In this document: piece after piece, positions 4,837 through 18,447 of the stretch
Numbering within the stretch: the first letter of the stretch is position 1
How the letters are laid out: every line of letters starts with the position of its first letter
Origin: Stackebrandtia sp.
GTDB taxonomy: Bacteria; Actinomycetota; Actinomycetes; Mycobacteriales; Micromonosporaceae
Direction: 5' to 3'
Length of the DNA stretch: 64,000 nt
NCBI RefSeq assembly: GCF_035643755.1
Contig: NZ_DASQPW010000297.1
Coordinates: forward strand, 13,785-77,784
Position numbers and translations under genes: made by a program
The notes under the pieces: model-generated
Told to the model about the DNA's origin: nothing
The model's input: the letters and a program-made list of their open reading frames with translations, nothing else
Database searches by the model: none

Positions 4837-6282
4837 ATGTCCTCGTCCCGAGCCAATCCCCTGGTCATGGTGCTGGCCTTCGCGGGAATCGTGGTCTCCT
4901 TGATGCAGACCGTCGTGATCCCGTTGGTGCCAAGGCTTCCCGGGCTCCTGGACGCCACGCCGTCCGATGCCAACTGGGCGATCACCGCCACCCTGCTGGC
5001 CGGCGCGGTCGCCACGCCGATGATGGGGCGCCTGGGGGACATGTACGGCAAGCGCCGCATGCTGCTGCTCAGCCTGTCCCTCATGGTCGTCGGCTCGGTG
5101 ATCGCCGCGCTGTCCGGCTCCCTGCCGGGCATGGTCGCCGGGCGCACCCTCCAGGGCCTCGCCGCGGGGGTCATTCCGCTGGGGATCAGCATCATGCGCG
5201 ACGAACTGCCGCGCGAACGGCTCGGCGGTGCCACGGCCCTGATGAGCGCCTCGCTCGGCGTGGGCGGCGCGCTCGGCCTGCCCGCCGCGGCGTTCCTCGC
5301 CGAGCACGCCGACTGGCACGCGCTGTTTTGGACCTCCGCCGCGCTGGGAACCGTCGCGACCCTCCTGGTGGTGGCCCTGGTGCGCGAATCCCCGGTGCGC
5401 AGCGGCGGACGCTTCGACCTGCTGGGCGCCGCCGGGCTGTCGGCCGGTCTACTGTGTCTGCTCCTGGCGATCTCCAAGGGCGCCGACTGGGGCTGGACCA
5501 GCGGCACCACGCTGGGCCTGTTCGGCGCGACCGTGGTCGTCTTGCTGGTGTGGGGCTGGTGGCAGCTGCGCGCCGCCGAACCCCTGGTGGACCTGCGGGT
5601 CAGCTCCCGCCGCCAGGTGCTGCTGACCAACCTCGCCTCGGCGGTCTTCGGCTTCTCGATGTTCGCGATGTCCCTGGTGCTGCCGCAGGTGCTGCAGCTG
5701 CCCAAGGCCACGGGATACGGCCTGGGACAGGGTCTGCTGTCGGTCGGCCTCGTGATGGCGCCGTCCGGCCTGGTGATGATGGCCATGGCCCCGGTGTCGG
5801 CGCGGATCTCCAAACTCAAGGGCCCCAAGTGGACCCTGCTCACCGGCGCCGTCGTGGTAGCCGTCGGCTACGGCCTGGGCGCCGCGTGGATGTCGCAGAT
5901 CTGGCAGCTGGTGGGCGTCTCCGCGCTGATCGGCGCCGGAATCGGCATCGCCTACGGCGCGATGCCCGCCCTGGTCATGGCCGCGGTCCCGGTGTCGGAG
6001 ACGGCGGCCGCCAACAGCCTCAACACCCTGATGCGCTCGATCGGCACGTCGACCTCCAGCGCGGTGGCCGGGGTCGTCCTGGCCCAGCTCACCGTCTCGT
6101 TCGCCGGACACACGCTGCCCGCCGAGAACGGCTTCCGGCTCGTCATGGTGATCGGCGCCGCCGCGGCCGTGATCGCGCTGGGCTTCGCGTCCTTCCTGCC
6201 CGCTCGCGCCCCCGCCGTCGACGAAACCGACCTGGGCAAAACGCCAGATTTGGTATACCATTTGCCGCCGCGGAGTGAGTGA
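4837..6282 (+). CDS. MFS transporter (14-TM DHA2-like)
   Basis: GRLGDMYGKRR motif A, many TM segments. Confidence 0.9.
   Translation: MSSSRANPLVMVLAFAGIVVSLMQTVVIPLVPRLPGLLDATPSDANWAITATLLAGAVATPMMGRLGDMYGKRRMLLLSLSLMVVGSVIAALSGSLPGMVAGRTLQGLAAGVIPLGISIMRDELPRERLGGATALMSASLGVGGALGLPAAAFLAEHADWHALFWTSAALGTVATLLVVALVRESPVRSGGRFDLLGAAGLSAGLLCLLLAISKGADWGWTSGTTLGLFGATVVVLLVWGWWQLRAAEPLVDLRVSSRRQVLLTNLASAVFGFSMFAMSLVLPQVLQLPKATGYGLGQGLLSVGLVMAPSGLVMMAMAPVSARISKLKGPKWTLLTGAVVVAVGYGLGAAWMSQIWQLVGVSALIGAGIGIAYGAMPALVMAAVPVSETAAANSLNTLMRSIGTSTSSAVAGVVLAQLTVSFAGHTLPAENGFRLVMVIGAAAAVIALGFASFLPARAPAVDETDLGKTPDLVYHLPPRSE
6241..6263. promoter_or_regulatory. Probable GntR/FadR-type operator, copy 1
   Basis: ACGCCAGATTTGGTATACCATTT with TGGTATACCA core palindrome at 6251-6260; an inverted copy lies at 8778-8802. 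Confidence 0.7.
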
Positions 6283-6299
6283 GAAGAGGAAGGAGCGCC

Positions 6300-7577
6300 G
6301 TGGCGTCGCGGGAACCAGCTGGCGTTGCGGTGTCCGAACGCGGCGGGCGGCTGAAGGCGGTGGCGTCGCTGCGCGACTCGCCGCGTTTTCGCCTGTTGTG
6401 GGCATCGAACCTGTTCTTCTTCGGCGGCGCCTGGATGCAGACGCTCGTGCTGGGCTGGGTGGTTTACGACACCACGCACTCGGAGTTCCAGCTGGCGGTG
6501 TTCACCGCCGCCCGGCTCGCCCCGATGCTGCTGGGGCCCCTGGCGGGCGTGATGTCGGACCGCCACGACCGGGTCAGGCTGCTCATGATCGCCTGCGGCT
6601 GGGGGCTGAGCGCGGTGATGGTCGTGGCCGCCATGACCTCGCTGGGCATCGTGCCGTACTGGGCGCTGGTCCTGAGCGGACTGGCCATCGGCATGGCCCA
6701 CTCGCCGTCGCAGCCCGCCCGCATGTCGCTGGTCCTGGACCTGGTGGGCCGCGACAACCTCAGCAACGCCAACGCCCTGAACTCCATGGCCATGAACATG
6801 ACCCAGGTGTTCGGGCCCGCCGCCGGCGGCGCCCTGCTCAGCACCGTCGGCGCGCCCGCGGCACTGTGGATCTCCGCGGGCTGGTACGCGGCGTCGCTGG
6901 CCCTGTTGTGGCCGCTGCGCCGCACCGCGCGCACCGCCCCGCCCGTGCCCGAACCCGTGCTGCGCATGCTCTCGGGCGGCATCCGCTCCATTGTGACCAA
7001 TCGCCTGGCCTCGGCCGTCCTGCTCATCACCCTGGCCGCCAACGTCTTCCTGTGGCCGATCTACCAGGGCTTCATGCCGGTGTTCGCCAAGTCCAATCTC
7101 GGCCTGGACGCCGCCGGGCTCGGGTGGCTGCTGACCTTCAGCGGCATCGGCGGCCTCATCGGTTCCGTCGTGATCGCCGCCATGGGCGACTTCAGGTTCA
7201 AGGGCGGCGTCTTCCTCGTCGGCACCGCGATCTGGGCAACGCTGTGGTCGCTGTTCGCCCTGTCCCACCTGGTCGTGACGTCCTTCGCCCTGATGGCCGC
7301 GATCGGCGTCATGAGCTCCGCCTTCGCCGTCCTGCAAACCACCCTGCTGCTCATGACCACCGACCCCGCGATCCAGGGCCGCGCGCTGGGCGTCCAGGAG
7401 CTCGCCATCGGCGTCATGCCGGTGTCCTCGCTGGCGCTGGGCGCCGCCGCCCAGACGATCGGCGTCGGCCCCACCACGTTCCTGAGTGGACTCTGTCTGA
7501 TCGCGATCCTCGTCGGCATCACCGTGTGGGTCCCGAAGCTGTTGACATACGGCAGCCCCGCACCGGTCGCCCCCTGA
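6300..7577 (+). CDS. MFS transporter
   Basis: About 12 TM, GVMSDRHDRVR motif A; AAGGAG RBS before GTG 6300 (ORF opens at 6279). Confidence 0.88.
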   Translation: MASREPAGVAVSERGGRLKAVASLRDSPRFRLLWASNLFFFGGAWMQTLVLGWVVYDTTHSEFQLAVFTAARLAPMLLGPLAGVMSDRHDRVRLLMIACGWGLSAVMVVAAMTSLGIVPYWALVLSGLAIGMAHSPSQPARMSLVLDLVGRDNLSNANALNSMAMNMTQVFGPAAGGALLSTVGAPAALWISAGWYAASLALLWPLRRTARTAPPVPEPVLRMLSGGIRSIVTNRLASAVLLITLAANVFLWPIYQGFMPVFAKSNLGLDAAGLGWLLTFSGIGGLIGSVVIAAMGDFRFKGGVFLVGTAIWATLWSLFALSHLVVTSFALMAAIGVMSSAFAVLQTTLLLMTTDPAIQGRALGVQELAIGVMPVSSLALGAAAQTIGVGPTTFLSGLCLIAILVGITVWVPKLLTYGSPAPVAP

Positions 7578-7585
7578 CCCGACGG

Positions 7586-8773
7586 TCAGAAGGTCAGCTC
7601 GCCGTCGACCGCCGCCACGGTGCCGCCCGCGATCACCATCGCGCGCCTCGGGCAGCGCGTCAGCGCGTCGGCGACGTTCTCGGCGTCCAGCAGGACGATG
7701 TCGGCGCGGGCGCCCGCCACCAGGTCGTGGATGTCGCGATGGACGTAACCGGCGGCGCGCGACGTCGCCAGCTCCACGACGTAGGCGAGATCGGCGTCGC
7801 CGCGCTGGCCGTGCAGCCGCGCGAAGTTCTGCGCCACCAGCAGGATGTCGCCGTCGCCGAAGGGGGACCACAGGTCGCGGATGCCGTCGGTGCCCAGCCC
7901 GACCGGGATGCCGCGCTCGCGCATCCCGCGCCACGGCAGCGGCGCGGTCCCCGGGGGAGCCACCGTCGCCCAACCGATGCCCGCCTCGGCGAACCGGTCC
8001 AGCAGTTCCCGTTGGCGCGCCGCGGGCAACTCGCCGAGCGCGAAGCCGTGCGAGATGGTGACCTTGCCCCGCAAACCATTGGCGCGCACCCGTTCGGCGA
8101 CCAGCTCATACTGGAACGCCCCGAGCTCGCCGCGGTCGTGAATGTGGATGTCGATGCCGACGCCGCGGCGCACCGCGATGTCGAACAGGCCGTCGAGCTG
8201 CGCCACCGGATCGCGGTCGATCGAGCACGGGTCGATGCCGCCGATGCTGGTGGCGCCCGCGGCGGCAGCCTCGTCCAGCAGCTTGAGCACGCCGTCGCGC
8301 CGCACCACCCCGTCCTGCGGGAACGCCACGACCTCCAGCTCCAGGCGGTCGCCCAGCGCCTCCACCGCCTCGCGCACCACCTCGATGCCGCGCAGCCCGA
8401 CGCCCAGGTCGACGTCGACGTGGCTGCGCACCGCGGTGGTGCCGTGCCGCAGGAACTCCCGCAGCACCGCCGCGGTGGAGTTCGGGCTCGGGATGCCCAG
8501 CGCGCCGCGCTCGGCCCGCTCGTGGGCGATGCGTCCGGCGGTGGTGTTGTCACCGCCGTAGGACACCCACGGCTGCCCCCACCAGCTCTTGTCCACGTGC
8601 GCGTGCGCGTTGATGAACCCCGGCAGCGCCAGCAGGCCACGCCCGTCGATCGGCTCGCCCCGCGGCGCCGCCGAACCGGCCGCCTCGACCGCGCTGATGG
8701 CGCCGCCGGACATCACGATGTCCACCGGTGCGGCGCCCCACGGGCGCACGTTCGTCAGTGTCTTGACTCCCAT
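7586..8773 (-). CDS. Amidohydrolase, cytosine deaminase/creatinine deaminase-like
   Basis: LPGFINAHAHVDK (HxH), VAFPQDG, IDIHIHD, SHGFAL, GTDGIRDLWSPFG. Confidence 0.88.
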   Translation of the reverse strand: MGVKTLTNVRPWGAAPVDIVMSGGAISAVEAAGSAAPRGEPIDGRGLLALPGFINAHAHVDKSWWGQPWVSYGGDNTTAGRIAHERAERGALGIPSPNSTAAVLREFLRHGTTAVRSHVDVDLGVGLRGIEVVREAVEALGDRLELEVVAFPQDGVVRRDGVLKLLDEAAAAGATSIGGIDPCSIDRDPVAQLDGLFDIAVRRGVGIDIHIHDRGELGAFQYELVAERVRANGLRGKVTISHGFALGELPAARQRELLDRFAEAGIGWATVAPPGTAPLPWRGMRERGIPVGLGTDGIRDLWSPFGDGDILLVAQNFARLHGQRGDADLAYVVELATSRAAGYVHRDIHDLVAGARADIVLLDAENVADALTRCPRRAMVIAGGTVAAVDGELTF

Positions 8774-8777
8774 GCCG

Positions 8778-8802
8778 AAAATGGTATACCAAAATCCGGC
8801 GT
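8778..8802. promoter_or_regulatory. Probable GntR/FadR-type operator, copy 2
   Basis: AAAATGGTATACCAAAATCCGGCGT, directly upstream of the amidohydrolase start. Confidence 0.7.
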
Positions 8803-9440
8803 CAGCGATCCGCCCCGGAACCCTCGGCCCTGCGACGCTCGGCACGCGCGTGCTGGTCGGCCAGCCGCTCCACCCCCGCGACGTCCCGCGCGGCGATCGC
8901 CTCGTACAACCGCCGATGCTCCTCGGCGATACCCAGCAGATCGTCGTGCTGGGCCAACAGCCACCGCATCCGGCTGCGCATCACCCCGGCGATCTCGCCG
9001 AGCAATTCGTTGGCCGCCAAGGACGTCACCGCCTCGTGAAAGTCCGCCGCCGCCCGCCTCGCCCGCACCGCGTCGGCGGCCACCGCCGCCGCCAGCTCCA
9101 CGTCCAACACCTCCCGCAGCGCCTCCAACCCCTCCCGGGTGCGCCGCTGCGCCGCCAACCGAAACGTCAACACCTCCAGCGCCGCCCGCACCTCGTTGAG
9201 ATCGGCGATGTCCGACGACGTGAACTCCCGCACCACCGACCAACTGCGCGGCCGCGGCGTCACCAGACCCTCGGCCACCAGCACCTTCAACGCGTCGCGC
9301 ACCGGCAGGCGGCTCACCCCGAGGTCCGCCGCCAACTCCCGCTCCACCAGCCTGGCGCCCGGCGGCCTCACGCCGTCCAAAATGTCGTCGCGGATCCGAC
9401 GCGTGACCCGCTCCGACTCAAGCTCCTCGGACCCCGGCAT
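8802..9440 (-). CDS. GntR family regulator (FCD domain)
   Basis: IRDDILDG..PPGARLVERELAADLGVSRLPVRDAL; DFHEAV..LAAN. Confidence 0.92.
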   Translation of the reverse strand: MPGSEELESERVTRRIRDDILDGVRPPGARLVERELAADLGVSRLPVRDALKVLVAEGLVTPRPRSWSVVREFTSSDIADLNEVRAALEVLTFRLAAQRRTREGLEALREVLDVELAAAVAADAVRARRAAADFHEAVTSLAANELLGEIAGVMRSRMRWLLAQHDDLLGIAEEHRRLYEAIAARDVAGVERLADQHARAERRRAEGSGADR

Positions 9441-9579
9441 GCCTGACTGTCCTATCTATTCCAACGTGCGACGCCATACACCCTCTCATGCCGCGCCACG
9501 CGCGTCGGTGGAGCAATCACCGCAAAGACCCGCCAGCCAGCGGGCCGCTCACTAAACTCCGAACTCGAGGTGACCCGCT

Positions 9580-10470
9580 ATGTCCCTTCCGATCTGCGTC
9601 GGCTACGACGGCTCCGACAGTTGCCTACCGGCCGTGAGATGGGCGGCGAAGGAGGCGCTGATCCGCCGCCGCCCGCTGGAGATCCTCTACGCGTTCCCGG
9701 TCGCGCCGATCGGCGGCGGGCGCGACGCGTCGATGCTGTGGCCCGAATCGCGCGACCTCACCCACTACGACGCCCAGCGGATGCTGGACGAGGTGCTGGA
9801 GCGCGTCGGCAAGGTGAACCCGGGCATCGACGTCACCAGCAAGCTGCTGGACTCGGTGAACCCCGCCGCGACCCTGATCTCGCGGTCACGGCGCAGCGAA
9901 CTCATGGTGGTGGGCAGCCGCGGCCGTGGCGGGTTCGCCGGGCTGCTGCTGGGCAGCACCAGCACCCGGCTGGCCACGCGCGGGCACTGCCCCGTGGTCG
10001 TCGTGCGCGAACACGACGCGACCGGGCCGCACGCGGGCCAGGTCGTGGTGGGGGTGGACACGTCGCCGCGCTCGACTCCCGTGCTGGACTTCGGCTTCGC
10101 CGAGGCCGCTGCGGCCGGGGTCGACCTGGTGGCCGTGCACGCGTGGGAGTACCCGTGGAACCTGGCGACCACCGACGTGGCGGTGGTGGTCCTCGACGTC
10201 GAGGAGGCCGCCGCCCGCGAGGAACAGATGCTCAGCGAGGCGCTGGCCGGGTACCAGGAGAGGTACCCGAACGTCAATGTGGTGCGCCGCCTCGAGCGCG
10301 GGCTGCCGCGCACGGTGCTGCGGGAGCTGTCGGCCGGGGCCCACCTGCTGGCCGTCGGGTCGCGCGGCCACGGGCAGCTCGCGGGCATGGTGCTGGGCTC
10401 GGTCAGCATGTCGCTGCTGCTGCACGCCCGGGCGCCGGTCGTGGTGCTGCGTCAGCGCGACGACGACTGA
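9580..10470 (+). CDS. Universal stress protein (tandem USP domains)
   Basis: Two VG.DGS/VGVD..S...VVGSRG.G...G.LLGS repeats. Confidence 0.93.
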   Translation: MSLPICVGYDGSDSCLPAVRWAAKEALIRRRPLEILYAFPVAPIGGGRDASMLWPESRDLTHYDAQRMLDEVLERVGKVNPGIDVTSKLLDSVNPAATLISRSRRSELMVVGSRGRGGFAGLLLGSTSTRLATRGHCPVVVVREHDATGPHAGQVVVGVDTSPRSTPVLDFGFAEAAAAGVDLVAVHAWEYPWNLATTDVAVVVLDVEEAAAREEQMLSEALAGYQERYPNVNVVRRLERGLPRTVLRELSAGAHLLAVGSRGHGQLAGMVLGSVSMSLLLHARAPVVVLRQRDDD

Positions 10471-10657: not shown

Positions 10658-12253
10658 ATGCACCGCGATCAGTTGCTGGGCAACCGTTATCGGCTGGAGA
10701 AGCCGGTCGGTTCCGGCGGCATGGGTGAGGTCTGGCAGGCCACGGACCAGGCCCTGAACCGCACGGTGGCGGCCAAGATCCTGCATCCCGCCCTGGGTGC
10801 CGACGCGCAGTTCCGGGAGAGATTCCTCCGCGAGGCGCGGACGCTCGCCAAGCTGTCGTCGCCGGGCATTGTGAACATCTTCGACGCCCGCGAGGAGACC
10901 ACCGAGGACGGTTCCCACGTCTTCTACCTGGTCATGGACTACGTGACCGGCCGCCCGCTGTCGGAGCTGTTGCGCGAGCAGGGGCGGATGGACGCCGCGT
11001 GGGTGATGTCCATGGTGGCGAAGGTGGCCGCCGGCCTCAACGCCGCCCACCACGCCGGGGTGGTGCACCGCGACGTCAAGCCCCAGAACATCCTGGTCGA
11101 CGACGACGGCACGGCCACCATCGTGGACTTCGGCATCGCCCGCACCCACGGCCAGACCGGCCTCACCATGACCGGCACCGTCATGGGGACGGTCACCTAC
11201 GCGTCTCCCGAGCAGTTGCAGGACGAGGACCTCACCGGCGCATCGGACGTCTACTCCCTGGGCGTGGTCGCCTACGAATGCCTCACCGGCAACCCGCCGT
11301 TCCAGGGCGGCACCACCGCCGCCACCATCACCGGGCACCTCACCCAGCCGCCGCCCCCGCTGCCGGTCGACGTGCCCGTGCCCGTCGCCGAGGTGGTGAT
11401 GCGGGCCCTGGCCAAGACCCCCGCCGAGCGCTACCCCTCGGCGTCGGCGTTCGCGCACGACTGCCGCCAGGCCGCGTCGGGACGGATGCCGCTGCCGCCC
11501 GCCACCGAGGCCATCCCGGCCCCGCCATCGCCCCCTCGACCGGCGCCGCAGCCCGCCCCGCAACCCGCGGCGGCCCGGGCGCCGATGCCGACCAACCCCA
11601 TGCCGGTCGCCGAACCCGACTACCGCCCCGTGCCCACCCCCGCAAAGCCCAAGCCCAACAAGCCACGGCGGCGCCGCGGCCGCGCCGTGCTGGTCACGCT
11701 GTTGATCCTGCTCCTCATCGCCGGCGCCGCCGCGGCGTACGTGTACTGGCCCAAGGGGCGCGGCAACGCGGCATCGCCGAACAACACCGACTCGACGTCG
11801 CAGTCCTCGTCGCCACCGGCGAAGGCCCCCGACGGCGTCACCAAAGAACCCACCCAGGTCATCAGCGTCGCCACCGGCAAGTGCCTCGACATCGGCAGTC
11901 TCGGCGTCACCACCCCCGACTGCTCCGAGGACAACCACAAGACGTTCACCTTCACGCGGGTCGCCAATGCCAGCCCCAACAACAACGTCTACTTCTTTGA
12001 GGACGAGGGCGACAAGTGCGTCAATGTCGACCCGAAGGGGCCGAAGCTCTCCGATGGAGAGTGCACGAAGGACTCGCGCTGGCGCCTGACCTGGATCAGG
12101 ACCGCGGACGGATGGGATGTGTGGAAGATCCAGCACCCCGCCGGCACGGACCACCTGTGCCTGATGGCCGACAACACCAAGCTCGGAGTCGGGCTCGCGG
12201 AGTGCGACAACACCAAGAAGTCCCGCTGGCGCACCGTGTCCGCGTCCTCGTGA
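10658..12253 (+). CDS. Ser/Thr protein kinase with TM and ricin-B-like extracellular domain
   Basis: GSGGMGEV, VAAK, HRDVKPQN, DFG, YASPE; Pro-rich linker, TM, then ATGKCLDI...W repeats. Confidence 0.92.
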   Translation: MHRDQLLGNRYRLEKPVGSGGMGEVWQATDQALNRTVAAKILHPALGADAQFRERFLREARTLAKLSSPGIVNIFDAREETTEDGSHVFYLVMDYVTGRPLSELLREQGRMDAAWVMSMVAKVAAGLNAAHHAGVVHRDVKPQNILVDDDGTATIVDFGIARTHGQTGLTMTGTVMGTVTYASPEQLQDEDLTGASDVYSLGVVAYECLTGNPPFQGGTTAATITGHLTQPPPPLPVDVPVPVAEVVMRALAKTPAERYPSASAFAHDCRQAASGRMPLPPATEAIPAPPSPPRPAPQPAPQPAAARAPMPTNPMPVAEPDYRPVPTPAKPKPNKPRRRRGRAVLVTLLILLLIAGAAAAYVYWPKGRGNAASPNNTDSTSQSSSPPAKAPDGVTKEPTQVISVATGKCLDIGSLGVTTPDCSEDNHKTFTFTRVANASPNNNVYFFEDEGDKCVNVDPKGPKLSDGECTKDSRWRLTWIRTADGWDVWKIQHPAGTDHLCLMADNTKLGVGLAECDNTKKSRWRTVSASS

Positions 12254-12321
12254 TCCACCGATGAGTTTCGCCGCTCCGCGCGGTCTACCCTTCGAAACTC
12301 ATCGCGAGGAGCCTGGACGCC

Positions 12322-12807
12322 ATGAACACCGAAACCGTCAGCGCCACCCTGGCCTTCCCCGCGCCCGCCGCGATGGTGTTCGCGGCACTGGCCGATCCCA
12401 CGACCCACGCCGCCATCGACGGCACCGGTTGGGTCCGGGGATCCATCAACCAGGCTCCGCTGTCCACAGTGGGCCAGATCTTCCGGATGCGCATGTACCA
12501 CGCCGACCACCCCGACGGCGACTACCGCACGGTCAACAAGGTCGTCGTCTTCGACCGACCCCGCGCGATCGCCTGGACGACCGGCCAGGAACTGGACGAC
12601 GGCGAGCGGGAATTCGGCGGCTGGATCTGGCGCTACGACCTCGCACCCGTCGACGAGTCCACGACGGAGGTCACGCACACCTACGACTGGTCGGCGGTGC
12701 CCCGGTACGTCCGCGACCGCGGCATCACCTTTCCCCCCTTCGGTCCCGGCCACCTCGCCAACTCACTGCGCCACCTGCGCGACCTCATCACCGAGGCTTC
12801 GCGGTGA
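12322..12807 (+). CDS. SRPBCC/polyketide cyclase-like protein
   Basis: VFAALADP..H.AIDGTGWV...IAW...GGWIWRYDL...VTHTYDWS; GAGGAG RBS. Confidence 0.75.
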   Translation: MNTETVSATLAFPAPAAMVFAALADPTTHAAIDGTGWVRGSINQAPLSTVGQIFRMRMYHADHPDGDYRTVNKVVVFDRPRAIAWTTGQELDDGEREFGGWIWRYDLAPVDESTTEVTHTYDWSAVPRYVRDRGITFPPFGPGHLANSLRHLRDLITEASR

Positions 12808-13435
12808 ACACCAGGTGCGTGACCCCGCTGGGGGTCGAGACCGCCTCGATGTCGTAGGAGTCCTCAAGCGACTCCAGGCCGTCCCACAGCCGAACCCCGC
12901 GGCCCAGCACCATGGGCACCTGCACCACGTGCATGAAGTCGACCAGCCCCGCGGCGAGGAAGTCGCGGCACACGGTCGGCCCGCCCCCGATCCGCACGTC
13001 CCCGCCGTCGGCGGCCTCGCGCGCGGCGGTCAACGCCTCGCTCGGCGCGGCGTCGAGGAAGTGGAACGTGGTGCCGCCGGCCATCTCGATGGACGGCCGC
13101 GGCCGATGCGTCAGCACGAACACCGGGGTGTGGAACGGCGGGTTCGGGCCCCACCACCCCTTCCAGCCGGCGTCGTCCTGCCACCCGGGCGGCCCGAACT
13201 TTCCCGCGCCCATGATCTCGGCCCCGATCCCGGGCTCGAACCACGCCGCGATCGCGTTGTCGACGCCGCGACCGCCGCCCTCCTCCCCGGTCTGCTGGTG
13301 GAAGAACCGGGTGCGAACCATCCACTCGTGCAGCCGATGTCCGGCGTGCCCGAACGGGTCGTCGAGGCTCAGCCCCTCCCCGGTGGCGAACCCGTCGAGC
13401 GAGATCGAGAAGTTGTGGATGCGTGCCTCGGACAT
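12788..13435 (-). CDS. Dihydrofolate reductase/RibD C-terminal family protein
   Basis: ISLDGF, IMGAGKF, PVFVLTH, IGGG...FLAAGLVD...PMVLGRGVRL; start at 13435 or 13441. Confidence 0.88.
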   Translation of the reverse strand: MSEARIHNFSISLDGFATGEGLSLDDPFGHAGHRLHEWMVRTRFFHQQTGEEGGGRGVDNAIAAWFEPGIGAEIMGAGKFGPPGWQDDAGWKGWWGPNPPFHTPVFVLTHRPRPSIEMAGGTTFHFLDAAPSEALTAAREAADGGDVRIGGGPTVCRDFLAAGLVDFMHVVQVPMVLGRGVRLWDGLESLEDSYDIEAVSTPSGVTHLVFTAKPR

Positions 13436-13632
13436 GGTCATGGTCTCCCTGTGTTCCATCGACGGTGGGATCCCAGCATGCACCGAATATCCGTGCCCAG
13501 CACGGATACGGCGCCGTGGCTTCGGTGGAAGGCTTGCCGACGTCTCCCGAACGTTCCGGCGATCGGGAGGGTATCCAGCCGAAACACCCGGTGTGGCGAG
13601 CGCCGTGCCGGCACTTTATGAGGAGGAATCGG

Positions 13633-13794
13633 ATGACTCTTGTTGTGCCTTCGCGCGAGGACCTGCGCGGTGAGCTGACTGTGGACGAGGGCCCCGCGGC
13701 GGTGGCGGCCGAGCACCAGGCGGGCGCCGCGTGCATGTACCAGGTGCAGGTCGCGTTGTCGGTTGACGACGTCAGCCCGGTCACCGAAAGCTGA
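13633..13794 (+). CDS. Putative RiPP precursor peptide (53 aa)
   Basis: GAGGAGGA RBS then ATG 13633; MTLVVPSREDLRGELTVDEGPAAVAAEHQAGAACMYQVQVALSVDDVSPVTES; directly upstream of ycaO-tfuA on the same strand. Confidence 0.75.
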   Translation: MTLVVPSREDLRGELTVDEGPAAVAAEHQAGAACMYQVQVALSVDDVSPVTES

Positions 13795-13800
13795 CCGCGA

Positions 13801-13847
13801 CCCGGTCACGTCCACGTCGAACGCGGAGTCGCGGGGACGTGACCGGG
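13801..13847 (+). terminator. Stem-loop between the precursor gene and ycaO (mRNA stabiliser or attenuator)
   Basis: Perfect 13-bp inverted repeat CCCGGTCACGTCC (13801-13813) / GGACGTGACCGGG (13835-13847). Confidence 0.65.
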
Positions 13848-13871
13848 CTTCCATTGGGGAATGAGGATGCC

Positions 13872-15068
13872 ATGATCGGCACTGACACGAATCTGGCCGT
13901 GCGGGGCGTACCGGTGGACGACGCGGCGTACAAGAGCGTCGTGGCCGGTACACATCGGACGTGCGCCCCGGAGCGGACGCTGGCGCGGATCGTGCCGTTG
14001 TTGCCGCGCATGGGCATCACTCGGCTGTCGGACGTGACCTGGCTGGACGACATCGGGGTGCCGGTCTTTCAGGCGGTGCGGCCCAACTCGTACACGATCT
14101 CGGTGTCGCAGGGCAAGGGGCTGACCCCGGACCTGGCGAAGGTGTCGGCGGCGATGGAGTCGATCGAGACGTGGCACGCCGAACGCCTGCCGCCCGGCGA
14201 CACCCGCGACACCGTGGCGGCGATCGCGCCCGAGCTCGACTATGGACTGGACGAGTTGCCGCTGTTGCCCCGGCATCACCTGAACCCCGGCGCCACGGTG
14301 GAATGGGGTCGGGCCCGCCGGTTGATCGACGGCACCGACACGTTGGTGCCGATGGAGTGCCTGCGATTGGACGGGCGCACCTCGGCTCGATGGCAGCTGC
14401 CGCTGTTTCACACCACGAGCAACGGGCTGGCCAGCGGCAACACCGTCGGCGAGGCGACGCTTCACGCGCTGTACGAGGTCATTGAGCGGGACGCGATCGC
14501 CCGCGCCGCCACCGCCGACGGCACGGTCGTGGTGGACCTCGACAGCGTCGGCGGCGACGCCGCGGAACTCATCGAACGGTTGCGGGCGGCGGAGGTCGCG
14601 GTGCGGGTGGACGTGTTGCCGAGCCCCACGGGTGTGGCGTGCGTTCGGGCCAGGATCGTCAGCGACGCGTTTCCCTACGTGTTCGAGGGAATGGGCGCCC
14701 ACCTCGACCGGGACGTGGCGTTCTGCCGCGCCGTCACGGAGGCCGTCCAGTCGCGGGTGACCGCGATTTCGGGCGCCCGCGACGACATGCGCGGCGACTG
14801 GTACCGGCGGGCCGGGTTGGTGGCCGCCGGGCGGTCCGGGACGCCGGATCTCGAGCCGCTGTACCGCAACCCGGTTCGGACCGCCTTCGGCGACGTCCCA
14901 TCGGTGCGCCACGCGACGCTGGGCGAGGACCTGACGCGGGTGGCCCACCTGGTGCGCGGGCATACGGGGCGGGATCCGTTGGTGGTGGACCATACCCGGC
15001 CGGACATCGGGATCGCGGTGGTGCGCGTGGTGTGCCCGGGTCTGCGCTACAACCCCGAGGCCGGGTGA
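13872..15068 (+). CDS. ycaO: YcaO-family protein, TfuA-associated (thioamide-forming type)
   Basis: GITRLSDVTWLDDIGVPV, SQGKG..AKVSAAMESIE, SNGLASGN...ALYEVIERDA, AVTEAVQSR...ISGARDD, C-terminal VVCPGL; GAGGA RBS before ATG 13872. Confidence 0.95.
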   Translation: MIGTDTNLAVRGVPVDDAAYKSVVAGTHRTCAPERTLARIVPLLPRMGITRLSDVTWLDDIGVPVFQAVRPNSYTISVSQGKGLTPDLAKVSAAMESIETWHAERLPPGDTRDTVAAIAPELDYGLDELPLLPRHHLNPGATVEWGRARRLIDGTDTLVPMECLRLDGRTSARWQLPLFHTTSNGLASGNTVGEATLHALYEVIERDAIARAATADGTVVVDLDSVGGDAAELIERLRAAEVAVRVDVLPSPTGVACVRARIVSDAFPYVFEGMGAHLDRDVAFCRAVTEAVQSRVTAISGARDDMRGDWYRRAGLVAAGRSGTPDLEPLYRNPVRTAFGDVPSVRHATLGEDLTRVAHLVRGHTGRDPLVVDHTRPDIGIAVVRVVCPGLRYNPEAG

Positions 15069-15072
15069 GGGC

Positions 15073-16455
15073 ATGACACGGCGAGTGCTGTTTTGCGGGC
15101 CGAGCCTGCCGGACGCGGGCGAGCTGCTGGCGGACGACGACATCGAGCTGCTGCCGCCGATCGCGGCCGGCGACCTGCTGGGCCTGTCGGCCGGACAGGG
15201 CGACGTCATCGGGATCGTCGACGGGTACTTCCATCAGACGCGTTCGGTGCGGCACAAGGAGATCCTGGCCGTCATGGACGACGGCGCGCGGGTGCTGGGC
15301 GCCGCGAGCCTCGGCGCGTTGCGGGCCGCAGAGCTGGACACCCTCGGGATGGAGGGGGTGGGGCGCGTCTACCGGGACTACCGGGACGGCGTCCTGACCG
15401 CCGACGACGAGGTGACCCTCACCCATGGACCGGCCGACACCCGGTATCGGCGGATGTCGGAGCCCCTGGTGAACATTCGGGCGACCCTCGACGCGGCGGT
15501 CGACGCGGGGCTCGTGCCGCCGGACGAAGCGCGGGCGCTGGTGGAGCGGCTGGCGGCGATGCCCTACTCGCAGCGCACCTTCCCCCGGCTTTCGGCGCTG
15601 GCCGCCGCGCGGGGATTGCCGGACGACATGGTGCGGCGGCTGGACGGGTTCTGCCGCGGGCATGCGGTGGATCGCAAGCGGTCGGACGCGGTGGAGCTGG
15701 TGCACCGGCTGCGCGAGACGGCGCCGGTGGCCGTCAAGCGGTCGCCGGTGAGCCGGACGATCTTCCTGCACGCGTGGCAGGTCGCGGCGGCGGGCGGCGA
15801 CGCGGGCGACGGCGCCGGTTGGGTCGCCGACCTGTCGGTGTTGCGGATCTGTCAGGCCCTGGCGGACGACTATCCCGGGCTGCACCGCGCGACCGTGCTG
15901 CGGCGGTTGGCCGACGAGTGCCGGGCAACCTGCGGCGGCACCACCGGTGACGTCGAGGATGTGGCGATCGCGCACGGGGTGCACCGGGGCATCTACCCTC
16001 CCCTGGACGCATCGGCCGACTGGTCCTTTCTGGATGGATGGCTGTCCGGTGTGGAGCGGAACCACTGGGGCCCGCGCGCGCGGGTGCTCGCCTTCCTGGT
16101 GCGCGGCTTTCGGGTGGCGCCGGGGATCATCGACGATCTCGGCGCGATAGGCGAGCTGCTGTCGCGGCCCGACCTGGTGCGGCGGGCGCGGCGGATCGCC
16201 GGTTACGCCCGCGAGGTCAACCGGGGCGCCGCCGACAGCGAACCCGGCTTCTCGGTGGCGGCGATTCCGTCGGGGCGCGTCGTCGACTGGCTGTGCCGCC
16301 GCTGGCACACCACGCGCGAAGAGTTGCCCTACCGCGTCATGGACCGCGGTCTCGACACCGTGGACACCATGGTGGCGGGCGCGCGGCCGTACTACCTGCT
16401 GGCCACGTACAACCCTCACGCCGCGGCGCTGTCGATCGCGGAGGACGCCCCATGA
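15073..16455 (+). CDS. tfuA: TfuA-like protein with long C-terminal extension
   Basis: VLFCGPSL, PPIAAGDL, IGIVDGYF...SVRHKEIL, GAASLGALRAAEL, DDEV, SEPLVNIRATL. Confidence 0.93.
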   Translation: MTRRVLFCGPSLPDAGELLADDDIELLPPIAAGDLLGLSAGQGDVIGIVDGYFHQTRSVRHKEILAVMDDGARVLGAASLGALRAAELDTLGMEGVGRVYRDYRDGVLTADDEVTLTHGPADTRYRRMSEPLVNIRATLDAAVDAGLVPPDEARALVERLAAMPYSQRTFPRLSALAAARGLPDDMVRRLDGFCRGHAVDRKRSDAVELVHRLRETAPVAVKRSPVSRTIFLHAWQVAAAGGDAGDGAGWVADLSVLRICQALADDYPGLHRATVLRRLADECRATCGGTTGDVEDVAIAHGVHRGIYPPLDASADWSFLDGWLSGVERNHWGPRARVLAFLVRGFRVAPGIIDDLGAIGELLSRPDLVRRARRIAGYAREVNRGAADSEPGFSVAAIPSGRVVDWLCRRWHTTREELPYRVMDRGLDTVDTMVAGARPYYLLATYNPHAAALSIAEDAP

Positions 16456-17213
16456 GTTCGGCACGCGCCGCCGCGGCGTTCGACCGGGGGTACGCCGCCA
16501 TCGCCGCCTCGGCGCGCCACGGCGAGCTGTTCAGCCGGGCGCTGGGCCTGCCGCCGGAGGTCGCGGCGAACTCCTTTCTCACCGCCGAGGCACTCGACGA
16601 CATCGCCGCGGCGCTGGGCATCGGCGCCGGCGACCGGCTGGCCGACCTCGGCTGCGGACGGGGCGGGCCCGGTCTGTGGCTCGCCCGCCGGCTCGGGGCC
16701 GCGCTGGACGGCGTCGACTTCTCGGCGGTCGCGGTGTGGCAGGCGGGCGAACGCGCCCAAGGGTTTGGACTCGCCGACCGCTCGTCCTTCCGCGTCGGCG
16801 ACCTGTGCGACACGGGGTTGCCGAGCGGGCGGGCGGGAGCGGCGGTGTGCGTCGACGCGTTTCACTTCGCGGCCGATCACGACGCCGAGGCCGCCGAGGC
16901 GTGGCGGATCCTGCGGCCCGGCGGGCGATACGTCCTGACGAACTGGGAACCCGTCGCCGCCGACGACGCGCGGGTGCCGCCGCCGCTGCGGCTCGACTTC
17001 GCGCGGATCCTCACCGCGGCGGGGTTTCGGGCCGTGACGGTGTCGAAACGGCCCGACCTGGAGGCCGCCCAGCGGGCGCTGTTCGCCGCCGTGCTGGCCA
17101 CCGAGCCCGGCGACGACCCCGCGATCCGGGCGCTACGCGCCGAGGCCGCGGCGGTGGACGGCTGGGCGGGGCTCATGCGCCGCGTCCTCGTGGTCGCCGA
17201 AAAACCCGCCTGA
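16452..17213 (+). CDS. Class I SAM-dependent methyltransferase
   Basis: ADLGCGRGG motif I, GVDFS, RILRPGG; ATGA overlap with the tfuA stop. Confidence 0.9.
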   Translation: MSSARAAAAFDRGYAAIAASARHGELFSRALGLPPEVAANSFLTAEALDDIAAALGIGAGDRLADLGCGRGGPGLWLARRLGAALDGVDFSAVAVWQAGERAQGFGLADRSSFRVGDLCDTGLPSGRAGAAVCVDAFHFAADHDAEAAEAWRILRPGGRYVLTNWEPVAADDARVPPPLRLDFARILTAAGFRAVTVSKRPDLEAAQRALFAAVLATEPGDDPAIRALRAEAAAVDGWAGLMRRVLVVAEKPA

Positions 17214-17220
17214 AACGGTG

Positions 17221-18447
17221 CTACCCCAGGCGCATCCCCGAGATGGCCCTGGCGATCACGAGCCGCTGGATCTCGCTGGTGCCCTCGAAGATCGTGTAGA
17301 TCTTGGCGTCGCGGTACCAGCGCTCCACGGGATGGTCGCGGGAGAACCCCGCCCCACCGAGGATCTGCACGGCCTTCTCCGTCGTGCGGATCGCCACCTC
17401 GCCCGCCTTCAGCTTGGACATCGACCCCTCGCCGGCGTCGAAGCTCTTGTCGTTGCGGCCCATCCAGGCCGCGCGCCACACGAGCAGGCGGGCGCAGTCG
17501 ATCTCGGTCTTCATGTCGGCCAGGGCGAAGCCGATCGCCTGGTTGGCGATGATGGGTCGTCCGAATTGGACGCGCTGCTTGGCGTAGTCCAGGGCGTACT
17601 CGTACGCGGCGCGGGCGATGCCCACGGCCTGGGCGCCGACGGTGGGTCGGGTGAGTTCGAAGGTGCGCATCGCCGCCTGCTGCCCCTGGCCAGGCTGGGT
17701 GGCGGCCTCGCGGGCGCGGGCGAGGCGGGCGTCGAGCTTTTCCTTGCCGCCCAACAGGCATCGGCCCGGAACGCGGACGTCGTCGAGGAAGACGTCGGCG
17801 GTGTGGGAGGCGCGCAGGCCCAGCTTGCGGATCTTGGTGGGGCTGGACAGCCCCGGCGTGCCCGGGGGGACGACGAAGGCGGCCTGGCCGCGGGACCCGA
17901 GCTCGGCGTCGACGGAGGCGGTGACGACATGGACGGTGGCGATGCCCGCGTTGGTGCCCCAGGCCTTCTGTCCGTTGAGGACCCATTCGTCGGTGGCCTC
18001 GTCGTAGCGGGCGCGGGTGCGCATGGAGGCGACGTCGGAGCCCGCCTCGGGTTCGGAGCTGCAGAAGGCGGCGACCTTGGGGTCGTCGGCGTCGCCGTAG
18101 CACTGGGGGACCCACTCCACGAGCTGGTCGGGGGTTCCCGAACCGTAGATCGCGGCCACCGCCAGGGAGGTGCCGAAGATGGACAGCCCGATTCCCGCGT
18201 CGCCCCAGAAGAGCTCCTCGTTGACCAGGGGCAGGCTCAGCCCGCTGGGGTCGGCCCAGAACTGGGCCAGGGACTCGAATCCGTACAGACCGATCTTGGC
18301 GGCCTCGGCGATGATCGGCCAGGGGGTCTCCTCGCGTTCGTCCCATTCGGACGCCGCGGGGCGGATCACGTCGGCGGCGAAGCCGTGCGCCCATTCCTGG
18401 ACGTCGCGCTGGTCCTGCGACAGCTCGAGGCTGAATCCGTCGTTCAT
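17221..18447 (-). CDS. Acyl-CoA dehydrogenase
   Basis: FCSSEPEAGSD, LNGQKAW, YAKQRVQFG, YRDAKIYTIFEGTSEIQR; start MNDGFSLELS. Confidence 0.95.
   Translation of the reverse strand: MNDGFSLELSQDQRDVQEWAHGFAADVIRPAASEWDEREETPWPIIAEAAKIGLYGFESLAQFWADPSGLSLPLVNEELFWGDAGIGLSIFGTSLAVAAIYGSGTPDQLVEWVPQCYGDADDPKVAAFCSSEPEAGSDVASMRTRARYDEATDEWVLNGQKAWGTNAGIATVHVVTASVDAELGSRGQAAFVVPPGTPGLSSPTKIRKLGLRASHTADVFLDDVRVPGRCLLGGKEKLDARLARAREAATQPGQGQQAAMRTFELTRPTVGAQAVGIARAAYEYALDYAKQRVQFGRPIIANQAIGFALADMKTEIDCARLLVWRAAWMGRNDKSFDAGEGSMSKLKAGEVAIRTTEKAVQILGGAGFSRDHPVERWYRDAKIYTIFEGTSEIQRLVIARAISGMRLG

What the first reader, a model, noticed from the sequence alone, without database searches (positions are those of the whole stretch)
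13633..17213. Compact, probably uncharacterised YcaO-TfuA-methyltransferase thioamide RiPP cluster
Seen: four co-directional genes, namely a 53-aa ORF, ycaO, tfuA (4 nt after the ycaO stop) and a SAM methyltransferase (ATGA overlap). They are bounded by a divergent RibD-like gene and a convergent acyl-CoA dehydrogenase. Established: YcaO with TfuA installs backbone thioamides (methyl-coenzyme M reductase thioglycine, thioviridamide-type thioamitides, thiovarsolins). This YcaO ends in PGL...PEAG, not the PxPxP tail of azoline-forming YcaOs, and no E1/ocin-ThiF partner or dehydrogenase is present. Inference: the product is a thioamidated, methylated peptide. The cluster lacks the HFCD decarboxylase, kinase/HopA1 and LanC-like genes of thioamitides, so it fits no class I recognise.
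Basis: partly seen in the sequence, partly recalled or inferred. Interest (0 to 1): 0.92.

Follow-up and report, generated by a model that had tools for sequence, protein, structure and literature searches.

The report
Orphan thioamide-methyl peptide gene cassette
Four intact neighbouring genes in an actinobacterium encode a short peptide and three enzymes that likely swap a backbone oxygen of that peptide for sulfur and likely add a methyl group; close relatives were predicted by genome mining in 2019 and no product was found in the papers searched, so it is a sound but not unique natural-product lead.

Summary
A 53-aa ORF, ycaO, tfuA and a SAM methyltransferase (MT) lie as described, with intact frames and conserved motifs. 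The peptide is a real precursor: 20 of 28 loci with a full-length relative of this TfuA carry a peptide with the same N-terminal motif upstream of ycaO. Kribbella has the same layout with TfuA fused to the MT. An MT of one of three distinct types flanks 19 of 24 related loci. The cluster is a divergent sister of RiPPER Network 21 (PMC6511847 supplement), predicted in 2019: TfuA 50% identical, peptides 23-30%. It is therefore a YcaO-TfuA (thioamitide, broad sense) cassette built like the minimal thiovarsolin set, not a class-less system. No product was found in the papers searched. New here: TfuA carries a 240-residue helical extension with no Pfam match and no clear PDB match, absent from 39 of 39 archaeal TfuAs; it may bind the leader (untested). 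The scan noted similar compact clusters with other precursors on other DNA. Interest 0.42.

The parts
13620..13626 (+). Shine-Dalgarno-like GAGGAGG before the precursor start
   Evidence: sequence
13633..13794 (+). Precursor peptide, 53 aa, pI 4.05: conserved N-terminal motif (residues 1-15, inferred leader), hypervariable middle, conserved C-terminal part (YQVQVALSVDDV)
13872..15068 (+). YcaO, 398 aa (alternative GTG start 13839), stand-alone thioamide type; S92/E96/E99 and N184/E202/E205/R206/D207 invariant in 19 aligned relatives
15073..15735 (+). TfuA core domain (residues 1-221); same fold as M. acetivorans TfuA 6XP8 (Z 26.7, rmsd 2.5 over 212 residues, 40% identity); S79 and K202 invariant in 29 of 29
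15736..16455 (+). TfuA C-terminal extension (residues 222-460), mostly helical, pLDDT 94; no Pfam or NCBIfam family, no clear PDB match; candidate leader-binding domain (inferred)
16452..17213 (+). Class I SAM-dependent methyltransferase, 253 aa; 55% identical to the MT fused to TfuA in Kribbella L012
17206..17232 (.). Hairpin where the MT meets the convergent acyl-CoA dehydrogenase gene; terminator-like on the - strand, not above chance (2 found, 1.2 expected)

Best explanation
This is a self-contained peptide-modification cassette: the 53-aa peptide is likely the substrate, YcaO and TfuA are predicted to convert one or more of its backbone amides to thioamides, and the methyltransferase likely methylates the same peptide. 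Steps: (1) YcaO and TfuA form a complex and bind the N-terminal acidic helix motif of the peptide, residues about 3-15 (inferred; the TfuA extension is my candidate binding site, untested). (2) YcaO uses ATP to phosphorylate a backbone carbonyl oxygen and TfuA supplies sulfide from a thiocarboxylated ThiS-type carrier encoded elsewhere in the genome (established for the family, PMC13185837; four ThiS-family genes and one full ThiF/MoeB-family gene are in the genome; which carrier is used is unknown). (3) The modified site most likely lies in residues about 29-42 (QAGAACMYQVQVAL), where small residues resemble thioamitide cores and conservation resumes (inferred, about 55%); LSVDDV is either the tail of the product or a follower motif. 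(4) The MT adds a methyl group; my guess is the alpha-amine or a side chain of the core (target not determined). (5) Host proteases release a short product, as no protease or exporter is encoded; thiovarsolins are made from varAYT alone in a heterologous host (PMC6511847).
For: Intact co-directional genes with tight spacing. YcaO scores 200 bits on the McrA-thioamidation model against 89 on the azole SagD model, both under their cut-offs; its best solved relative is the thioamide-forming archaeal YcaO 6PE3. TfuA core superposes on 6XP8. All 28 loci with full-length TfuA have ycaO directly upstream; 20 of 28 have a same-motif peptide upstream, and one more a weak match downstream. The peptide label clusters on the YcaO tree (3 changes against 22 in shuffles, 0 of 500), and the window is sister to Kribbella (SH-aLRT 98). 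Kribbella encodes TfuA and the MT as one 701-aa protein. An MT flanks 19 of 24 related peptide-bearing loci: window type 3, a second type 13, Methyltransf_33 type 3, one of those partial. Background: 47 Methyltransf_25 genes in the 5.0-Mb genome, about 1% of genes.
Against: No product, mass shift or expression data. The MT belongs to a common family (319 hits, most of the 120 listed near 50% identity, neighbourhoods unknown), and the Kribbella fusion partner (55%) is no closer than the best of them (58%). 5 of 24 related loci show no MT by my queries (L013, L016, L026 with a truncated contig, L028, L204). The 24 loci are not independent: 10 are one Amycolatopsis clade. 7 of 28 TfuA loci have other peptides or none found, plus extra enzymes, so the enzymes alone do not fix the product. 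No characterised bacterial YcaO or TfuA was in my tree. Synonymous and non-synonymous changes among close peptide pairs are about equal (38 against 35, non-independent pairs), only moderate purifying selection.
Confidence: 0.7

Rival explanations
1. The peptide is thioamidated, but the methyltransferase does not act on it: it is a passenger, or it methylates another target such as a cellular molecule for self-protection.
For: The MT family is widespread; its best solved relatives are small-molecule MTs such as MitM (E 6e-19); three MT types interchange; 5 of 24 loci show none.
Against: ATGA overlap here; fusion to TfuA in Kribbella; 19 of 24 loci against about 1% of genes.
Confidence: 0.17
2. 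YcaO/TfuA thioamidate a folded host protein, as for McrA or uL16, and the small ORF is an adaptor or subunit, not the substrate.
For: Protein thioamidation by YcaO is established (PMC5589413, PMC13063428). No protease or exporter in the cassette. Both ends of the peptide are conserved, as a binding partner's might be.
Against: The cluster is patchy: YcaO not found in 7 of 7 congeners (one of them, G006, is unpublished) nor, at E 1e-80, in 400 sampled genomes of the class. Related TfuA loci carry different peptides with tailoring enzymes, and one locus has two divergent peptide copies, as RiPP loci do. Scores are below the McrA-type cut-offs.
Confidence: 0.06
3. YcaO makes an amidine, azoline or macrocycle, not a lasting thioamide (for example through a thioamide or S-methyl thioimidate intermediate).
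For: YcaO chemistry depends on the nucleophile (established knowledge). The peptide has Cys, Ser and Thr. The TfuA-MT fusion would suit a coupled step.
Against: The characterised YcaO-TfuA pairs listed in PMC13174530 give thioamides; low azole-model score; no E1 partner or dehydrogenase among the flanking genes; Cys is not conserved across the family.
Confidence: 0.05
4. The cassette is a silent or decaying acquisition that makes nothing.
For: Not found in congeners; relatives with a split ycaO exist (L037; plasmid locus L219).
Against: All four frames are open, the invariant residues are kept, and enzyme GC3 of 0.91-0.92 matches the flanking genes.
Confidence: 0.02

Closest known systems
RiPPER Network 21 (predicted YcaO-TfuA precursor family; Glycomyces harbinensis, Micromonospora citrea, Streptomyces bingchenggensis; PMC6511847 Supplementary Dataset 4)
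   Same: About 50-aa precursor with the N-terminal P[ST]xx[EDK]L motif directly before ycaO-tfuA; long TfuA (50% identity to SDD31385 over 454 aa); Glycomyces loci with such peptides fall in the same YcaO clade (SH-aLRT 97); a locus holding two Network 21 peptides has YcaO 58% and TfuA 49% identical and an MT beside one peptide copy.
   Different: The peptide is only 23-30% identical to the named members; its C-terminus reads YQVQVALSVDDV, not FKF...VDPADVHGA; the MT is Methyltransf_25/11 downstream of tfuA, not Methyltransf_33 upstream. No product of Network 21 was found in the papers searched.
Thiovarsolins (varAYTO, Streptomyces varsoviensis; PMC6511847)
   Same: Minimal logic: precursor, YcaO, TfuA and one tailoring enzyme suffice for production. 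By eye, a similar leader helix, [STND]xx[EDQ]LxxxL.
   Different: No repeated core and no APR motif; an MT stands in place of the heme-oxygenase-like VarO.
Thioviridamide-like thioamitides (thioviridamide, thiostreptamide S4, thioholgamide; PMC8153245)
   Same: YcaO-TfuA pair; Ala-rich stretch in the presumed core; methyltransferase tailoring; similar leader helix by eye.
   Different: No C-terminal Cys, no AviCys machinery (kinase, HopA1-like, decarboxylase), no cysteine protease gene.
Archaeal McrA thioamidation (YcaO 6PE3, TfuA 6XP8; PMC5589413)
   Same: Core enzymes and their folds.
   Different: Substrate is a protein; the archaeal TfuA ends at about 217 aa, without the extension (0 of 39 archaeal loci).

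Membership tests
YcaO-TfuA thioamidated RiPPs (thioamitides, broad sense of PMC9576775) | Adjacent ycaO and tfuA genes | tested here: met
YcaO-TfuA thioamidated RiPPs (thioamitides, broad sense of PMC9576775) | A linked precursor peptide conserved with the enzymes | tested here: met
YcaO-TfuA thioamidated RiPPs (thioamitides, broad sense of PMC9576775) | Catalytic residues kept | tested here: met
   Invariant YcaO E96/E99/N184/E202/E205/R206 and TfuA S79/K202 align with 6PE3 and 6XP8. Their role as ATP-binding motif and as the Ser-Lys pair is recalled; the primary TfuA paper was not held.
YcaO-TfuA thioamidated RiPPs (thioamitides, broad sense of PMC9576775) | Backbone thioamide in the product | not testable with these tools
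   needs MS or NMR
Thioviridamide-like thioamitides (narrow sense) | C-terminal Cys and AviCys macrocycle enzymes | tested here: not met
   Peptide ends PVTES; none of the 8 flanking proteins scanned is of these families; Network 5 thioamitide precursors end in HC.
Thiovarsolins | Repeated APR-type core and VarO-like enzyme | tested here: not met
RiPPER Network 21 | Precursor identity at the networking cut-off (40% is stated for Figures S2-S4; I assume it for the TfuA networks) | tested here: not met
   23-30% to four named members
RiPPER Network 21 | Related TfuA and shared peptide architecture | tested here: met
Azol(in)e-forming YcaO (LAP/TOMM) | SagD-family score, E1/RRE partner, proline-rich PxPxP tail (tail motif recalled) | tested here: not met
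   TIGR03604 89 bits against a cut-off of 219; tail PGLRYNPEAG; no partner gene
McrA-glycine thioamidation system | TIGR03266 and NF033432 equivalog cut-offs | tested here: not met
   200 against 365 bits; 195.5 against 235.2 bits
SurA/PrsA-type chaperone domain (for the TfuA extension) | Structural match over most of the domain | tested here: inconclusive
   SurA, PrsA, PEB4 and trigger-factor chains fill 8 of 50 rows but only at Z 2.2-3.3, rmsd 3.9-5.4 over 69-113 residues; best row overall Z 3.6

The most novel reading that the evidence does not exclude
The 240-residue TfuA extension is an undescribed leader-binding domain, an RRE substitute of a fold without a clear solved relative, used across bacterial YcaO-TfuA pathways to grip a shared acidic helix in the leader. 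In this family the precursor is clamped at both ends (leader and follower) around a hypervariable core, which is thioamidated and methylated by a TfuA-coupled methyltransferase. That would give a portable three-enzyme tool for site-directed thioamidation and a new product class.
Probability: 0.25. Interest if true: 0.68.

Novelty: new variant of a known kind. Interest (0 to 1): 0.42.

Why it matters
The chemistry is known, but PMC13174530 lists only five product types made by YcaO-TfuA pairs and this family is none of them. The cassette is 3.6 kb, has one precursor, and has named strains with the same layout (Kribbella, Glycomyces, Amycolatopsis), so it is an easy reconstitution target. How bacterial YcaO-TfuA pairs recognise their leader was not described in the papers I searched; the extension and the shared leader helix make that directly testable. 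It is one of many orphan TfuA families, which caps the interest.

Tried and rejected
Fold of the TfuA extension: Foldseek gave no match at E 0.001, VIA-align none at Z 5 or more among 48,161 chains, the profile search of PDB sequences one row at E 0.13, Pfam and NCBIfam nothing consistent over 50 members, and the ESM Atlas only a 52-member TfuA-like cluster. This does not show the fold is new. The SurA-like idea stays a weak lead. Complex prediction of peptide with the extension was not available, so binding is untested. No RNA holder is listed for the stretch. No sigma-70-like promoter was found, which says little in this host. No second precursor copy in the own genome, 87.6% complete; one YcaO and one TfuA only. 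A profile from the 16 more distant peptides does not find the window's peptide. The leader-helix motif count (28 of 44 against 0.5 in shuffles) is post hoc and not a test of the link to thioamitide leaders, which is by eye. The 29-of-29 count for the extension in actinobacteria is partly circular, as the query held the extension. P0297 is a repeat-derived false hit and was dropped. A tree with characterised bacterial enzymes (TvaH, VarY) could not be built, as no tool returned them. Literature: 8 searches found no characterised product of this family; subscription papers are mostly not held, the RiPPER supplement is cut before the Network 21 figure and Table S1, and the held supplement of PMC8120280 had no hit for six leader motifs but is only 34,194 characters, so its peptide table was probably not seen. 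Earlier scan notes held nothing on this family by sequence or place.
Full report
Observation. The 53-aa ORF runs 13633-13794 behind GAGGAGG. ycaO ends at 15068 (PF02624, 224.6 bits), tfuA starts 4 nt later (PF07812, 152.8 bits) and overlaps the methyltransferase (MT) by ATGA. A RibD_C gene diverges upstream and an acyl-CoA dehydrogenase converges downstream. The genome holds one YcaO and one TfuA. GC3 of the enzymes (0.91-0.92) matches the flanking genes. The YcaO was not found in 7 of 7 congeners (this count includes the unpublished G006), and in the single-contig congener G007 the flanking genes are scattered, so this is an accessory cassette.

The enzymes. YcaO scores higher on the McrA-thioamidation model (200 bits, cut-off 365) than on the azole SagD model (89, cut-off 219), and its best solved relative is 6PE3. 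The motifs around E96/E99 and N184/E202/E205/R206 are invariant in 19 aligned sequences; their ATP-binding role is recalled. TfuA residues 2-219 superpose on 6XP8 (Z 26.7, rmsd 2.5, 212 residues), with S79 and K202 invariant in 29 of 29; a Ser-Lys pair is named in PMC13185837 (part 1 read), but the residue numbers are my inference. Four ThiS-family genes and one full-length ThiF-family gene elsewhere in the genome could supply sulfur.

The peptide is real. A scan of species genomes kept 80 of 89 TfuA loci; 28 match over nearly the full length, all actinobacterial, all with ycaO directly upstream. Of the 28, 20 have a 43-57-aa ORF before ycaO with an N-terminal [LIV]P[ST]xx[EDQK][LV] motif, one (L039) has a weak match after tfuA, and 7 have other peptides or none found. 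Three more loci came from relatives (G102, G096, G827). A profile made without the window's peptide ranks it first of 70,526 genome segments (E 0.015), but loses it when the four nearest relatives are also removed. A search of 5.8 billion proteins with a 7-member profile gave 28 hits, 27 of them family members. Across those, pairwise identity is 0.49 at the N-terminus, 0.17 in the middle and 0.45 at the C-terminus. On a YcaO tree of 107 rows (duplicates, the split L037, the unpublished L100 and 48 metagenome rows left out) the window is sister to Kribbella (SH-aLRT 98), inside a 9-row clade (97) with the Glycomyces-type loci and two loci without the peptide; the peptide label needs 3 changes against 22 in shuffles. 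Kin share labels, so this shows clustering, not co-evolution.

The methyltransferase belongs. Kribbella L012 has the same order, with TfuA and a 55%-identical MT in one 701-aa frame, on record at NCBI as one protein. Among 24 related peptide-bearing loci, 19 have a flanking MT: 3 of the window's type, 13 of a second type (29% to the window's over 134 aa at best), 3 of Methyltransf_33 type, one of them partial. Five have none by my queries. About 1% of genes in the own genome are Methyltransf_25 (47 matches). Against this: the loci are not independent, the window's MT family is common, and its solved relatives act on small molecules, so N-, O- or S-methylation cannot be told apart.

The TfuA extension. 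Residues 222-460 fold confidently (pLDDT 94, pTM 0.89) but match no Pfam or NCBIfam family and no solved structure clearly (best Z 3.6; SurA/PrsA-type chains recur at Z 2.2-3.3). The domain occurs in 451 clusters at 50% identity; of the best 150, 125 carry a whole or partial TfuA core in front, and most of the other 25 look like fragments. It is absent from 39 of 39 archaeal TfuAs and present in 29 of 29 actinobacterial loci, the second count being partly circular. It is thus a general feature of many bacterial TfuAs, not special to this window. Since these cassettes encode no RRE, it is a natural candidate for leader binding. By eye, the window's leader (SREDLRGEL) has the spacing of thioamitide leaders (SPEELQAFL) and of the thiovarsolin leader (NPEQLQGFL) in the RiPPER supplement. 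This is a hint only; the complex could not be predicted.

Mechanism. Shown: gene layout, family membership of the enzymes, conservation of the peptide, the fusion. Established for the families: ATP-dependent amide activation by YcaO and sulfide delivery by TfuA (PMC13185837); thioamidation as first, gatekeeping step (PMC8153245, passages). Inferred: the peptide is the substrate (about 0.87); the MT acts on it (about 0.8 given that); the site lies in residues 29-42 (about 0.55); host proteases release the product. Overall 0.7 for a thioamidated and methylated peptide.

Comparison with what is known. It works like the minimal thiovarsolin set, where varAYT alone gives product (PMC6511847, results part 2 and methods section 10 read, supplement parts 388, 390, 391, 392 and term searches). 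It is not a thiovarsolin or a thioviridamide-like thioamitide. Its nearest described relatives are predictions: RiPPER Network 21, one of 15 networks the authors counted as precursor families. The window's TfuA is 50% identical to a Network 21 TfuA, its peptide 23-30% to named members. Five peptides of the wider family are in RiPPER's all-peptides sheet. PMC13174530 (passages) lists thioviridamide-like compounds, thiovarsolins, thiopeptides, chimeric lanthipeptides and the std product as the characterised YcaO-TfuA types. PMC9576775 (passages) uses 'thioamitide' for any such RiPP and reports a cluster with an MT whose methylation was not seen, a caution for step 4. PMC8120280 (parts 2-3 read) counts 613 TfuA cluster families. 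PMC13063428, PMC5589413, PMC12951456 and PMC10125368 were seen as passages. Eight searches found no product of this family; subscription papers and the cut part of the RiPPER supplement could change that. Earlier scan notes on compact TfuA-YcaO-MT clusters with 92-aa precursors concern other families and were not checked.

Verdict. Real, intact and most likely a thioamidated, methylated RiPP of an uncharacterised family, a divergent sister of a family predicted in 2019. New variant of a known kind. Interest 0.42; 0.68 if the extension proves to be a new leader-binding domain (probability 0.25).

Noticed in passing
L024 3672-10548 and L030 3570-10578: Streptomyces loci with a class III lanthipeptide synthetase-like gene, three tandem Thr-rich precursors, YcaO, long TfuA and an O-methyltransferase: a probable lanthipeptide-thioamide hybrid.
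   Followed up: no
L031 6562-15548: Actinomadura locus: Cys-rich precursor, YcaO-TfuA, a second YcaO and a nitroreductase-type enzyme; a probable azole-plus-thioamide peptide.
   Followed up: no
L037 and L038, about 6000-10230: YcaO with an Ala/Thr-rich N-terminal extension, flanked by nitroreductase and JmjC genes; no separate precursor found upstream; ycaO of L037 is in three frames.
   Followed up: partly
L015, L123, L036, L206: The same YcaO-TfuA clade also occurs with JmjC plus a second YcaO (L015, L123) or with a radical SAM gene (L036; L206 looks alike), so the pair is a reusable module.
   Followed up: no
L222 4987-14121 (G827): Two divergent precursor copies 5 kb apart: one beside a Methyltransf_33-type gene, one before ycaO-tfuA.
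   Followed up: partly
L219 3194-6428: Mobilizable Streptomyces plasmid with an MT, a ycaO annotated in two pieces and a long tfuA; a route for spread of the cassette.
   Followed up: partly
window 12200-17230: Variable patch: in the single-contig congener G007 the acyl-CoA dehydrogenase block, the RibD-like gene and the cyclase-like gene lie megabases apart and the cassette is not found.
   Followed up: partly
window 10658-12253: Ser/Thr protein kinase with a weak C-terminal ricin-type lectin match (E 2e-4, under the Pfam cut-off).
   Followed up: no
L047-L084 (11 proteobacterial loci): 9 of 11 proteobacterial TfuAs also have a 167-283-residue tail, but only 1 matches the actinobacterial extension profile: a more distant version or a different domain.
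   Followed up: no
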